Below, piece after piece: positions 36,001 to 42,000 of a stretch of 64,000 nucleotides of DNA. Source of the DNA: Treponemataceae bacterium (lineage in GTDB: Bacteria; Spirochaetota; Spirochaetia; Treponematales; Rectinemataceae); contig CAXXVZ010000003.1 of the NCBI GenBank assembly GCA_963678065.2, forward strand, positions 704,001 to 768,000, written 5' to 3'. The first letter of the stretch is position 1, and the number at the start of each line of letters is the position of its first letter. Position numbers: made by a program.

Positions 36001-39000
36001 CTCGATACTGATGCTGTTGGCTGGTGGTTTTACCACGATATTTTTTTGGAGATAGATGAACAACTACATAGAACCTGTCAGGGTCCAGAGCCTGAAGGAA
36101 GCCTGCGTCGCACGTCTGGAGGAGCTGATTCTCTCAGGTGGGCTCAAAATCGGCGAACGTCTGCCCCCCGAACGCGATTTCGCCGCCCGTATCGGTGTCA
36201 GCCGCCCCGTCCTTCACGAGGCGCTGGTGGACTTGGATGCCAAGGGATTGGTGCGGATTGTTCCCCGGCGAGGGGTATTCGTCAGCGATTACCGCCGCTC
36301 CGGCTCGATGACGATGCTATCCTCCCTGCTGGCCTACCACGACGGACAGCTCGACCCTGCCTTCACCCAGAGCCTGATCGACATGCGCCTGGTTGTCGAG
36401 ACGGAGACCGCCCGTCTCGCGGCGCAAAACCGGACCGGGGAGCAGCTGACCGAGTTCCGCACCCTGCTGGACGACGAACAGCGCGCCTCGTATTGTGACC
36501 CGCAGCTTCTGACCGATCTCGACTTTTCTTTCCACCTCTCGATCGCCATCGCCTCCGGCAATCTCGTCTATCCGCTCATGATCAATTCCTTCAGGGCTGT
36601 CTACACCAGCCTCACCGGTGAGTTCTTCCGCACGTATTGCGGGACGCCGGTGGTGGATACTGTCCGGCAGTTCCACGTCCAGATAGTCGACGCTCTCGAG
36701 CGGAAAGACTCCGAGGGCGCTGTCCGCACAATGAGCGCAATCCTCAAGCATGGAGAAGCGTATCTGCGAAGCGACAAATAGGAGGCGAACAGCCATGGCC
36801 ACCTGTACGAGTGAGAAACCCCGTTATTCCATCAAAGAGCCCGCCACTGTTTCCCCGCGCATCCAATGGTTGCGCGATTACTATTTCCAGGGTGTGAGAC
36901 GCGCCTGGAACAATGAGTACAGCGCCTGGACCACGGGCAGCCCCTGGGACTTCCAGTACAACGAACTATCGTTTTACATAGTCCCGGAAACCTACTCCTT
37001 CCTGCAGACCTTCCGCTCTTCGTTCAGCCAGATGGCCCGCCGGGTCGAGGTGCATCCGGAATTCTGGAAGTGGAGTCTCCCCGAACGGCGAGCCTGGTTC
37101 AACCGCGAAGTCATGGTGCGCCATCTGCCCAAGGAGATTCTTCCAGGCGACCTGTTGGCCGGAGCGCGTTTCAATGTCATGACCTCGGCCTGCCTCACGG
37201 AGAAGGAAACCCGGGAGCGCGATGGCAGGATCGAAGGTCCGCGAGGCGCGCGGGCGGCGATGCTCTGGTTCCACAACCACGGTTTCGGCAACGCCGGGGC
37301 CACTTCCGGCCACCTGATCCCCGATTACGGGCGCGTTGTCCGGGAAGGCTGGAAATCCATCCACGCCGAGATCGAAGCCGAGTACGCGGCGCTTCCGGAG
37401 CCAGATAAGCGTGGGAAAAGAGGCGGACAGCTGCGGGCGATGCTGACATCCTCCACCATGGCGAGGGATCTGGCCGCGGAGTATTCCAGGGAATGCCTCC
37501 GTCTCGCGCAGGGGCATCCCGATCCAGTCCGCAAAACCGAACTTCTCCAGATGGCCGACAATCTGGGCCGCGTGCCGTGGGAGCCGGCGCAGACGTTCTG
37601 GGAAGGTATCCAGTCGCTGTGGTTGACACACATGCTGGTCATGTCCGACGAGAATTACCCCGGCCCGGGCGACTCCTTCGGACGACTCGACCAATACCTG
37701 CACCCTGTCTGGGAAAAGTCCCTCCGCGAGGGCATGGACCCGGAGTTCGGCAAGGAAATCCTGAAATGCTTCTGGATCCACTGCAACACCGCATACGACG
37801 GCATGATCCGCACCGGCGGCAACCAGGGCATCACCGCCGGGTACGGGCAGCTGTTTACGATCTCCGGCATGGGCCCTGGCGGGAGCGACATGACCAACGA
37901 CTTCACGTATGTCCTCCTGGACGTGATCGACGGAATGTCGCCCATCCTCGAGCCGAAGCCCAACGTGCGGCTGCACCGCGCCTCGCCCGAGAAGCTGCTC
38001 GACCGGGTAGTGGAGATGATTGCCGCCAGCCAGGGCGCGCCTTTCCTGCTCAATTTCGACGAGCGCTCGATGGCCGGCCTGATGCTCGAGGCCAGACGTT
38101 CCGACGCAACCCATCTCATCGACGAAAACAACGTATTCGATTACGCTCCTGTGGGCTGCCTCGAGAACACGATGGTCGGCAACGACAGATCGGGCACCGT
38201 GGACGCCAATCTGAATCTCCTCAAGGCGGTCGAACTGACTCTGACTGGCGGCTACGATCTGGGTCCCTTCACCGATCCCTTGAGCGGAGCAACTGAAAAA
38301 CCACAACGTTGGGGCGCGGACACTGGCGACCCTTCCCGCTTCGAAACCTGGGAGCAGTTCTGGGACGCCTACGCCGCACAGACTTGCGCCATCATCCGCC
38401 GCATTGTGGACCTGTACGAACAGTCCGAGTCCATCCGGGCGCGCTTCTTTCCGACACCCTACGTCTCCTGCCTGGTGAGAGGTTGCGCCCAAAAGGGGCT
38501 GGATATCAACGAAGGCGGCGCCGAGCTCGGCTATGTCACGATCGAAGCCGTGACCTACGCCACCACGGTGGATTCCCTCCTCGCGGTCAAGTACCTGGTC
38601 TACGACGAAAAGTTCTGCACCATGCCGGAGATGCTGAAGGCGCTCGCGGACAACTGGGTCGGGCACGAAGTCCTGCAGGCCCGGGCCCTGCACAGAACGC
38701 CGAAATACGGGCGCGACGACGACCGGGCCGACGAGATGGGCCGCGCCGTGATGGGGCTTTGGACAGATGAAACCTGGAAGTACAGGACCAAGTCCACGGG
38801 CCGGCAGTTCCGCCCCGGCATGTTGTCCTGGAACTACTGGGTGGCCGATTCGTTCATTCTGCCCGCGAGCCCGGATGGACGTCCGCGGGGCAAGTTCCTG
38901 TCCAATGCCCTGTGCCCCTCGAACGGCGCGGACATCGCCGGTCCTACGGCGAATGTCAACTCGGTCGGCAAGGTGCTGGGCGGCAGGGTCGCCGACGGTT

Positions 39001-42000
39001 CAGGCGATTGGGGGGACTACGTGAACCTCCTGCCCAACGGAGGCAGCCACACGATGACCTTCAATCCATCCATCCTGCGCGATCCGGAGCACCGCGGGAA
39101 GTTCAAGGCTTTCCTGAAGGGGTACATCGAGAATGGAGGCTCGGCGCTTCAGATCAATATGATCGACGCCGACATGCTGCGGGATGCCCAGAAGCACCCG
39201 GAGGACTACCGGCATCTCCTGGTTCGCGTCACCGGCTACAACGCCTACTTCACGTCCATCGGACGCGAACTTCAGAATGAGATCATCGCCCGCGAGAGTC
39301 ACCGGATATGAAAATCGCGGGCCGCATCCTCCACCTCCAGCGTCTTTCCACCGAGGATGGCCCCGGCATACGCACCACGGTCTTCTTCAAGGGCTGCCCC
39401 CTGCGCTGCGCCTGGTGCCACAACCCGGAAAGCATCTCGCAGCGGCCTCAGGTCCAGTGGCTCGCCCTCCGCTGCATTGGCTGCGGGACCTGCCTGGAGG
39501 TCTGCCCGAACGGCTGCCTGACGATACGCGAGGATAGCCTCGTCATGGACCGCGCCCGCTGCGCCGCTTGCGGGACCTGCGTCGCCGCCTGTCCCTCCGG
39601 GGCCCTCGAGTCGCTGGGCAAGGTGGCAGACGTGGAGGAAGTGTTGGCCGAACTGGTCAAAGACCACGCCTACTACGAGAAATCCGGAGGGGGCGTGACT
39701 CTTTCAGGGGGCGAGCCGACATTCCAGCCGGATTTCGCCGAGGCGCTTCTTCGCGACCTGAAGGAGCAGGGCATTCCAACGGCCCTCGACACCTGCGGCA
39801 TGTGTTCGATCCACACTCTCGACAGGCTTCTGCCCTACACTGACCTTGTTCTGTTCGACGTCAAGCTGCTCGATCCGGCTCTCCATCAGAAAGCCACGGG
39901 TGCCTCCAACGAACAGATTCTGGAGAACCTGGCCTACCTCAGGGATTACATCCGGGGCCGGAAGCGTTCCATCGGCCTGTGGATACGCACTCCCCTCATC
40001 CCCGAAACGACCGATACCGAGGAAAACCTGTCTCTCATCGGCCGCTACCTGTTCGAGACTCTGGATGGCGATTTCGACCGCTGGGAACTCTGCGCTTTCA
40101 ACAACCTCTGCCGCGACAAGTACACTCGTCTCGGTCTCGAGTGGATGTATGCCAGGACCCCGCTCATGACGCGCGAGGCGCTGGCCCGCTGCGAACAGAT
40201 CGCTAAATCTTCCGGCCTCCGGCCGGAGCTCGTTCTGGCTACCGGCGCAACCCGGGTGGAGCAAACGCACTGAACAGGAGTCGACCACGATGAACAGACA
40301 GCTTCTGGCTACTTTTTCGGAAGAAGATATCCGGAGCACCCGACCAGAGATGAAAATCGGCATCCTGGCGACGGTCACGCCGGAAGGATTGCCGCACGTG
40401 ACGCTGCTCTCCTCGCTGATGGCCTATGCTCCGGCACAGTTGTGCTTTGGCCAGTTCGTCGAGGGAATGTCGAAGAAACACATTCTCCTCAACCCTAAAG
40501 CCGGCTTCCTCATCATGGATTTGAACAAAAACCTCTGGCGCGGCAAAGCCTCCTACACTCACTCTGCAAAAGAAGGCCCGGAATACGATCACTACAACAA
40601 CCTGCCCATGTTCCGCTACAACGCCTACTTCGGAGTCCACACTGTCCACTACATGGACCTTGTGGGGCACAGGGGCAAGTCTCCGCTGCCGATGAACCGG
40701 ATCATCTTCGCGGCTATCCAGACCTGGATTGCGCGCACGCTGGGACGCAAGGCAGGCAGACAACCCGCGCTCAATGCCTGGACGCGCGCCTTCGTGGACA
40801 GGATCGACAACCTGAAATTCCTGTCCTACGTGGATTCGGATGGCTACCCGGCGATCATCCCCGCCATCCAGACCCAGAGCCAGGACGCGCAGCATGTTCT
40901 GTTCTCCACCTCCGTCTACAAGGATGAATTGGAGGCCATTCCGCCAGGCATCCCGCTGGCGGTTTTCAGCATGGCGCTGACGATGGAAGACGTGCTTTTG
41001 CGCGGCACCTACCAGGGCATCCGCCGCGTGGGCGGGGTCAATGCCGGGGTAGTTGAAGTCGAGTGGGTCTACAACTCCATGCCGCCGGTTCCGGGACAGG
41101 TCTACCCGCCTGTGGAGTTGAGACCAGTGACATTTTCAGGCCTGAATGCGTAACCCATCAAGGCGCACATGACAGAGCCGCCCGCTTCAGGCTTGTCGGA
41201 GGAATCGACGCTTTTTTACTAGATCGACGAGTCGGACCAGGGCGGCGAAGAAGGCGAGAACGCCGGCGTATCCGGCGACACGGCCGGCAGCTGCGGCGTT
41301 GAAGCCGCCGCGCTCTTTGCCTTCCCAGAGACCATTCCCGGCTGGCGGGCTGCGCGTCACGCCTGCAGCGTCCACGGCCTCCACAGACTTCTCAGTTCCC
41401 TCCGCATCTCGCTCCTGAAGCGTGAACTTCTCCCCGGAGTCCGGGAGCGCTGCGCCCGGCCGCGGTCTTTCCGGGCCTTGGGCCGAGGAGAGGCCGGTCA
41501 CGGCGCCAAAGCCCTGTGCCAGGCTTCCCCAATAACCTGTATAGACGCTGCATCCTAGCCCGATAGCGAGGACGATGGCGAGGATGGCATCTCTGGTTTT
41601 TCCCTTATTCCGCATCGAGGGCCCCCTTTGCATGTGCGGCGGACCTCGCGAAGCGCGCGGCGATCCAGTTCCAGTGCAAGCCGATGTGAAGGCCTGCGAC
41701 AGCCAGGATGAGGAAGGAAGCGAAGCCGTGGAGGACGCGCCAGATGAAGCCCGCGCCGCTCGGGAAAAGCCAGGAGAAATCGATAGTTTTGGCGATGGCC
41801 ATGCCGCTCAGGGTAATTGTCGAGAAACCAAGGAAGAGAAGAAGATCGAGAACATAGTTGAGACGCACCCTCGCAGGCAGAGTCCGGGAAAAGAACTTCG
41901 TCGAGACAGACTTGATCCAACTCCAATTGAGAAGCTTGTGGACGAGGAAAAGTACACAGATGGCGAGCCCTCCCCATTCATGAATGGAGAGGGGACCAAG

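What a model noticed while it worked through the whole genome (the two positions that open the first line are those of the whole stretch)
36056..41153. Glycyl radical enzyme class with an obligate tandem split-barrel (PNPOx-like) partner
g01300 (838 aa, Cys loop PVGCLE, about 30% to any studied GRE) is followed by its activase and by g01302, a 287-aa PNPOx-like split-barrel protein of twice the usual domain length, with no transporter or catabolic genes around. I read the three genes as one new GRE class whose product or radical is handed to a flavin/F420-binding redox partner, a kind of subunit not known for GREs. It would add a widespread GRE reaction of sediment and peat anaerobes.
Evidence so far: Below every NCBIfam cut: best equivalog 340 bits against cuts of 1000-1150; best PDB hit HypD E 1e-81. 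297 relatives in one metagenome scan; in all 40 of the best 80 loci with over 2.2 kb downstream the order GRE-activase-g01302 homologue holds, no other neighbour exceeds 9 of 40; motif (P/S)VGCLENTM counted 78 times. Also 2 of 30 Spirochaetia. g01302: PNPOx_N E 1e-5, 75% mean column identity, no PDB sequence match; look-alike clusters in Chloroflexota and Asgard archaea.
(Added by a program. Inside this text positions count along the whole contig: contig position 704,001 is position 1 of the stretch shown here. "Call 12" and the like, gene names such as g00115 and contig names such as C1 are that model's own, and its searches are not shown. The text may have been shortened before it was handed on; [...] marks where a part breaks off. 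The agent that wrote the report below was given it as the finding of a first reader that could run no searches.)

Follow-up and report, generated by a model that had tools for sequence, protein, structure and literature searches.

The report
Radical enzyme with split-barrel partner
This anaerobe carries a repressor-headed operon for an unstudied oxygen-sensitive radical enzyme, its activator and a double-barrel partner protein that almost always travels with it, and the operon's regulator links it to glycerol-lipid genes, so it likely breaks carbon-oxygen bonds in lipid-derived glycerol compounds.

Summary
Confirmed. The window holds a four-gene operon: FadR-type repressor with its operator, an 838-aa glycyl radical enzyme (GRE), its activase, and a tandem split-barrel protein. 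The GRE is a well-separated family with two clades (48% identity), below every NCBIfam cut-off. GRE and partner co-occur in 27 of 27 carriers among 251 Spirochaetota and 9 of 9 among 301 Chloroflexota genomes; 3 of 54 decidable metagenome loci lack the partner, so 'near-obligate'. F420 is unlikely (host lacks cofD/cofG); FMN binding and physical binding are untested (complex tool unavailable). A 2026 GRE review lists no such partner. This scan noted the cassette before on other DNA. Added here: the operator (46 of 50 loci) is shared with the nearest sister regulators, which head kinase/G3P-dehydrogenase/alkyl-DHAP-synthase-like operons, and that gene is enriched in carriers (25/27 vs 59/224; 8/9 vs 28/292). 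With a dehydratase-type His/CXE site that lacks most glycerol-dehydratase pocket residues, the best guess is a C-O eliminase on substituted glycerols such as glyceryl ethers (about 40%). Catalytically dead paralogues also exist.

The parts
36025..36035 (.). Palindromic operator TGGT-N3-ACCA of the FadR-type repressor (predicted)
   Evidence: Only strict match in the 64-kb window; strict match upstream of the GntR gene in 46 of 50 loci (0.12 expected), 0 of 115 upstream of GREs without GntR; fits TKGT/ACMA FadR boxes (PMC4494728, passages)
36056..36781 (+). GntR/FadR-subfamily repressor (HTH + FCD), 241 aa
   Evidence: Pfam GntR, FCD, FadR_C; upstream of the GRE in 25 of 79 GTDB loci and 20 of 27 Spirochaetota loci
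36795..39311 (+). Glycyl radical enzyme, 838 aa; Cys455, Glu457, Gly814, His173; family-specific N-terminal ~160 residues
   Evidence: these residues invariant in 53 of 53 aligned members of both clades
39308..40273 (+). Radical SAM activase with ferredoxin insertion, 321 aa
   Evidence: TIGR02494 316 bits over cut-off 174; Radical_SAM and Fer4
40290..41153 (+). Tandem PNPOx-like split-barrel partner, 287 aa; family motif RYNAYxG at residues 109-115
   Evidence: Model pLDDT 89; N-domain matches HupZ Z 13.7 (rmsd 3.2, 120 aligned) and Swol_0183 FMN-binding protein Z 12.6; internal duplication; motif conservation

Best explanation
The operon encodes a previously unnamed glycyl radical enzyme family with a dedicated double split-barrel partner, and the enzyme likely cleaves a carbon-oxygen bond in a substituted glycerol released from lipids, such as a glyceryl ether or monoacylglycerol. 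Shown: gene set, family isolation, partner coupling, operator. From established GRE chemistry: the activase installs a radical on Gly814, which passes to Cys455. Inferred (about 70%): H-abstraction at a carbinol, Glu457 as base and His173 as acid give 1,2-elimination as in glycerol dehydratase or the ether-opening isomerases. Inferred (about 45%): the substrate has a glycerol backbone bearing a substituent. Inferred (about 55%): the partner docks on the GRE; it would gate the substrate or take over the reactive aldehyde product (for a 1-O-alkylglycerol, 3-alkoxypropanal that can shed the alcohol to give acrolein), with FMN in the N-domain only (about 35%).
For: Family isolation: 1251 vs 562 bits gap; monophyly support 1.0, stem 0.60 against 29 other GREs. 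Coupling:+88 (27/27), 94+95 (9/9); partner and GRE diverge together (pairwise identity correlation 0.94); in 9 loci the partner follows the GRE with no activase between. Chemistry: His173 aligns with glycerol dehydratase His164, CXE kept (roles from PMC13450708 section 5.6); HpsG's sulfonate Arg aligns with Gly675 and CutC's Asp with His173. Substrate lead: the host's paralogous repressor (45% identity, same operator) heads GlpA-like, GlpB-like, DUF1667, FGGY kinase and an alkyl-DHAP synthase homologue (PDB 2uuu E 6e-63); all 3 other top-tier non-GRE-linked regulators with readable context (G059, G110, G175) head GlpA/B-like genes, 2 with the ADPS-like gene in the fetched stretch; in the regulator tree these branch next to clade-I GRE regulators (bootstrap 54-83); ADPS-like gene in 25 of 27 carriers vs 59 of 224 non-carriers and 8 of 9 vs 28 of 292 (close type 5 of 9 vs 4 of 292); glycerol kinase beside the operon in L041, L052, L064, L191 and L213, with lipase-like genes in the first group.
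Against: No substrate, cofactor or binding datum exists. Glycerol kinase is near only 5 of about 187 loci, two lineages at most. Other neighbours are heterogeneous (adenosine deaminase 5 loci, nitroreductase 5, acyl-CoA dehydrogenases, creatininase 2). The same regulator group also heads racemase-like genes and another GRE. The ADPS-like gene is family-wide in several lineages with or without the GRE, so co-occurrence may reflect lifestyle; kin are not independent. No second operator-controlled locus recurred in 30 inspected sites of 16 genomes. The host has no acyl-CoA dehydrogenase or enoyl-CoA hydratase match, so it could use only the glycerol part. The Lys of the P-K motif seen in HupZ and single-domain relatives is lost in the partner, and this fold does not imply FMN binding (PMC11602992, passages). 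The pocket mapping rests on sequence alignment; the GRE model is weak at 680-723.
Confidence: 0.4

Rival explanations
1. Same architecture, but the GRE acts on an unrelated polyol, hydroxy acid or heterocycle, and the partner is a cofactor-free structural or gating subunit like the BSS/HPAD small subunits.
For: Heterogeneous neighbours; FCD regulators usually sense small carboxylates (PMC4494728); partner lost one phosphate-binding Lys and its C-domain lacks the helix Lys/Thr motif; known small subunits have structural roles (PMC13450708).
Against: Does not explain the shared operator and regulator kinship with ADPS-like operons or the enrichment in two phyla; clade II keeps K-T-x-x-N-L in 29 of 29 for K and N.
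Confidence: 0.25
2. A convergently evolved dehydratase for free glycerol or a small diol; the partner handles 3-hydroxypropanal/acrolein.
For: His/Asn/CXE shared with glycerol dehydratase, second-best PDB profile hit; glycerol kinase neighbours; no transporter needed.
Against: Positions of GD His281, Ser282, Tyr339, Asp447, Tyr640 (glycerol contacts recalled, numbering counted) hold Pro, Gly, Gly, Val, Leu; no 1,3-propanediol dehydrogenase-like gene among the 60 neighbours scanned as a recurring partner.
Confidence: 0.15
3. The partner serves the activase: an FMN electron carrier, or a decoy whose RYNAYF loop mimics the GRE's GYNAYF glycyl loop and regulates activation.
For: Partner usually follows the activase; one activase-partner read-through protein, P0394, 624 aa; motif likeness, absent from 8 single-domain relatives; nearest folds include the Desulfovibrio FMN-binding protein.
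Against: 9 loci have GRE then partner without an activase between; the fusion is a single sequence that keeps the partner's own start Met; partner variants RYNTY/RYNSY pair with an unchanged GYNAYF; GYNAYF also occurs in an unrelated GRE.
Confidence: 0.12
4. One reading: the partner is an F420-dependent reductase for the GRE product.
For: F420 enzymes share the fold (Rv2074 Z 10.8, MSMEG_3380 Z 10.6); one Anaerolineae carrier has cofD.
Against: No cofD/cofG in the host, no cofD in five more carriers.
Confidence: 0.03

Closest known systems
B12-independent glycerol dehydratase (PDB 1R8W/1R9D) and propanediol dehydratase (C-O 1,2-eliminases)
   Same: PFL-like barrel, single catalytic Cys in CXE, His at the GD His164 position, ferredoxin-type activase
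   Different: About 22-30% identity; unrelated N-terminal 160 residues; CLENT and LSWNY motifs; most pocket residues replaced; a conserved third gene
Hydroxyproline dehydratase HypD
   Same: Best single-sequence PDB hit (E 9.6e-82); His160 equivalent and CXE kept; paired with a downstream redox enzyme (P5C reductase) in many genomes (PMC6219649)
   Different: 340 bits vs cut-off 1100; partner is a split barrel; host has a separate HypD-like GRE
GRE isomerases YbiW, PflD, HplG
   Same: CXE-driven cleavage of a C-O (ether) or C-N bond, precedent for ether opening
   Different: Lower scores, no sugar-phosphate pathway genes
Multi-subunit GREs BSS, MASS, HPAD
   Same: A GRE that travels with conserved accessory genes
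   Different: Their small subunits are Fe-S or rubredoxin-like; here a 260-290 aa Cys-free-motif double split barrel; lowest scores among non-PFL GREs
COG3576-type split barrels (HupZ, Swol_0183, LDB0262, Desulfovibrio FMN-binding protein)
   Same: Fold and sequence profile of the partner's N-domain
   Different: Partner is a tandem fusion with an added RYNAYxG motif and without the P-K lysine; single-domain relatives occur in genomes without the GRE

Membership tests
PFL-like glycyl radical enzymes | PFL-like barrel, Cys loop, C-terminal RVxG Gly loop, cognate activase | tested here: met
PFL-like glycyl radical enzymes | Glycyl radical formed (EPR) | not testable with these tools
   Needs protein
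GRE 1,2-eliminases / isomerases | CXE motif in the Cys loop | tested here: met
   C455-L-E457 in 53 of 53 for C and E; feature from PMC13450708
GRE 1,2-eliminases / isomerases | Demonstrated elimination or ring opening | not testable with these tools
   Substrate unknown
HypD, HpsG/HpfG, CutC, PflD, IAD, HPAD equivalogs | Score above the NCBIfam cut-off | tested here: not met
   149-340 bits vs 1000-1150
C-S lyases (IslA, IseG, HpsG) | Sulfonate-binding Arg on the late barrel strand | tested here: not met
   Aligned position is Gly675
Glycerol dehydratase | Full glycerol pocket (His164, Glu435 from the review; His281, Ser282, Tyr339, Asp447, Tyr640 recalled) | tested here: not met
   Only His and Glu (and Asn156) kept
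Pyruvate formate-lyase | Cys-Cys pair | tested here: not met
   GCLE; 72 bits vs 994
X-succinate synthases / HPAD | Fe-S small-subunit genes in the operon | tested here: not met
   None between or after the genes in the window or recurring in loci
PNPOx-like split-barrel superfamily (partner) | Split-barrel fold | tested here: met
   N-domain Z 13.7; C-domain by profile homology to the N-domain, not searched alone
FMN-binding split barrels (partner) | Phosphate-binding residues and bound FMN | tested here: inconclusive
   Clade II keeps K-T-x-x-N-L, clade I has G-x-S-K, both lack the P-K Lys
F420-dependent FDORs (partner) | Host makes F420 | tested here: not met
   1 of 3 has cofD

The most novel reading that the evidence does not exclude
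An oxygen-independent radical enzyme for glyceryl ether lipids: a two-component GRE whose split-barrel subunit delivers the lipid or captures the aldehyde product, working alongside a kinase/dehydrogenase/alkyl-DHAP-synthase-like route in sediment and peat anaerobes.
Probability: 0.2. Interest if true: 0.9.

Novelty: new variant of a known kind. Interest (0 to 1): 0.68.

Why it matters
GREs are the main radical toolkit of anaerobes, and each new family has so far brought a new reaction. This family is common in sediment, peat and digester Chloroflexota, Spirochaetota and Desulfobacterota MAGs (over 3000 partner clusters at 90%) and has an accessory protein type absent from a 2026 review. The regulator link turns an orphan into a short, testable substrate list; if it is ether lipids, it would address how ether bonds are broken without oxygen (recalled as an open question; one search found no paper joining these terms).

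Tried and rejected
Complex prediction of GRE with partner could not be run (tool not available), so binding is open. Fused forms: one search of longer proteins (only 7996 candidates scored) gave one activase-partner read-through and no GRE-partner fusion; weak either way. Expression: three metatranscriptomes of one study hold short scattered contigs over the GRE, activase and partner, one crossing the activase-partner junction; DNA carry-over not excluded, not used as evidence. Promoter scan found none; terminator-like site at 41194-41210 is at chance level. Regulon search found no further recurring member. Beta-oxidation-linked fatty substrate rejected for this host. Nucleoside substrate (adenosine deaminase, deoxynucleoside kinase neighbours) seen only in one Anaerolineae-like group of 5 loci. 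Upstream ORF 35008-35967 has no family and no homologue in 79 loci: not part. Glycyl-loop mimicry shows no covariation. Literature: searches found no description of this family; PMC6849830 passages concern a carboxylase cluster; searches gave nothing usable; PMC4785665 passage was about another enzyme. Papers in subscription journals and supplementary similarity networks were not seen, so the cluster may sit unnamed in them.
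Full report
Observation. The window holds, on the plus strand, a GntR gene (36056-36781), a GRE (36795-39311), an activase (39308-40273) and a 287-aa protein (40290-41153), with overlapping or short junctions.

The GRE family. A GTDB scan found 265 relatives and kept 79 loci at 65-84% identity, mostly Anaerolineae and Dehalococcoidia. A Spirochaetota scan revealed a sister clade: GRE 799 aa at 48% identity, partner 264 aa at 24%; a metagenome scan with a mixed alignment found 577 relatives and kept 80. 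Members score above 1250 bits and the next GRE 562 in 251 Spirochaetota genomes; only family members match the N-terminal 160 positions among the best 150 representatives. A FastTree tree of 63 sequences (27 of the 53 aligned members, 2 further family representatives, 5 degenerate copies, 29 other GREs) gives one clade, support 1.0. The predicted fold is a standard PFL-like barrel, about equally distant from all eliminases.

Coupling to the partner. Partner downstream: 73 of 73 decidable GTDB loci, 25 of 27 Spirochaetota loci (two contig ends of one genome) and 51 of 54 decidable metagenome loci (one of them duplicates a Spirochaetota locus); L130, L135 and L136 lack it in the DNA held. At genome level the same 27 of 251 Spirochaetota and the same 9 of 301 Chloroflexota hold both, and none holds the tandem partner alone. 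In 9 loci the partner follows the GRE directly with no activase between, which ties it to the GRE more than to the activase; a single activase-partner read-through points weakly the other way. Pairwise identities of GRE and partner correlate at 0.94 over 53 loci, as expected for linked genes.

The partner. AlphaFold gives a confident two-domain model. The N-domain is a PNPOx-like split barrel closest to HupZ, Swol_0183 and LDB0262; the C-domain is a duplicate. Clade II keeps K-T-x-x-N-L like Swol_0183; clade I, including the window, has G-x-S-K; both lack the P-K lysine of HupZ and of single-domain relatives in Dehalococcoidia. So at most one flavin site, unproven; the fold name does not imply FMN (PMC11602992, passages). 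F420 is unlikely. The most conserved motif, RYNAYxG, is new to the tandem family and resembles the GRE's own GYNAYF loop; no covariation supports mimicry.

Active site. About 45 pocket and loop positions are invariant across both clades, so one reaction is likely. His173, Asn166 and Glu457 align with glycerol dehydratase His164, Asn156 and Glu435; the review assigns Glu435 as base and His164 as acid and states that all C-O eliminases and isomerases keep CXE (PMC13450708, section 5 read whole). The sulfonate Arg of HpsG is Gly, CutC's Asp is His, PFL's second Cys is absent. Other GD pocket residues (recalled) become Pro, Gly, Gly, Val and Leu, while Trp679, Asn680, Asn472 and Thr468 are fixed. 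I infer a C-O eliminase with a differently shaped, probably roomier pocket.

Substrate lead from the regulator. TGGT-N3-ACCA precedes the GntR gene in 46 of 50 loci (0.12 expected) and is unique in the window. The host's closest paralogue (45%) has the same operator and heads GlpA-like, GlpB-like, DUF1667, FGGY kinase and a homologue of alkyl-DHAP synthase. Of 26 top-tier regulator hits in the Spirochaetota sample, those not beside a family GRE were this paralogue, G059, G110, G175 (all GlpA/B-type operons with the operator) and G129 (contig end); several second-tier hits also lie beside ADPS-like genes, others beside racemase-like genes or another GRE. In an IQ-TREE tree of 36 regulators (L115 and L024 left out) the ADPS-operon regulators branch at the base of the clade-I GRE regulators with modest support and share most pocket residues. 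The ADPS-like gene is found in 25 of 27 carriers and 59 of 224 non-carriers in Spirochaetota, and 8 of 9 versus 28 of 292 in Chloroflexota (close type 5 of 9 versus 4 of 292; the 28 include G426, an unpublished genome). Glycerol kinase, a G3P dehydrogenase-like gene and lipase-like genes flank the operon in one Dehalococcoidales group, and glycerol kinase in one clade-II locus. Against: these neighbours are a small minority, the ADPS-like operon is itself untested, it is lineage-wide in places, and the host lacks beta-oxidation.

Mechanism. Shown: operon, operator, family, coupling. Established: activation and thiyl radical chemistry. Inferred: C-O elimination on a substituted glycerol; the partner docks on the enzyme and gates substrate or removes the reactive aldehyde. 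Overall confidence 0.4.

Comparison and novelty. The 2026 review lists accessory subunits only for HPAD, BSS and MASS, all Fe-S or rubredoxin-like, and has no occurrence of 'pyridox' or 'Chloroflex' (outline and passages). Six searches found no description of this family; subscription papers and supplements were not seen. Earlier notes of this scan describe the same cassette in other genomes and, separately, the ADPS-like operon; none of those shown links the two. It is a member of the PFL-like GRE superfamily, works like an eliminase, and fails membership of every named class tested: a new variant of a known kind.

Also found: five full-length relatives without the catalytic Cys/Glu pair and the glycyl loop nest inside both clades; their gene context is unknown.

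Noticed in passing
Proteins P0244, P0247, P0248, P0255 (clade I) and P0251 (clade II): Full-length (785-844 aa) family members lacking CXE and the glycyl radical loop, at least two origins, 1-2 members each: possible pseudo-enzymes.
   Followed up: partly
G000:C3:2260234-2267925 (L244): Paralogous repressor with the same operator heading GlpA-like, GlpB-like, DUF1667, FGGY kinase and alkyl-DHAP synthase-like genes; candidate oxygen-free glyceryl ether pathway.
   Followed up: yes
window 40614-40634 (partner residues 109-115) and GRE residues 814-819: Partner motif RYNAYFG resembles the GRE glycyl loop GYNAYF.
   Followed up: partly
P0394: Single 624-aa activase-partner read-through protein.
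   Followed up: partly
L048:5993-8962, L057:1904-4873; L130:15956-17069: A second, 989-aa GRE with a ~200-aa N-terminal extension and its own activase directly upstream of the operon (no SCP2 hit at E 1e-6); in L130 an SCP2-domain ORF overlapping a 244-aa GRE C-terminal fragment follows the activase.
   Followed up: no
G000:C3:2214234-2217131, C3:627451-629568, C5:1096641-1099217, C5:1105898-1108342: Four more GRE-activase pairs in the host; one HypD-like, one without a GCxE motif and with a WGWSGYF-type Gly loop.
   Followed up: no
L202-L208: Single-domain 139-aa split barrels in small Dehalococcoidia genomes, next to CRP/FNR regulators, a reductive dehalogenase-like gene and cobalamin-related genes.
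   Followed up: no
window 35008-35967: 319-aa ORF with no Pfam or NCBIfam family, not conserved beside the operon.
   Followed up: partly
window 32076-33053: Rieske oxygenase (VanA-like) in a host that carries five oxygen-sensitive GREs.
   Followed up: no
L105:8013-8543, L106:7967-8503: A 176-aa membrane protein without Pfam family inserted between GRE and activase.
   Followed up: no
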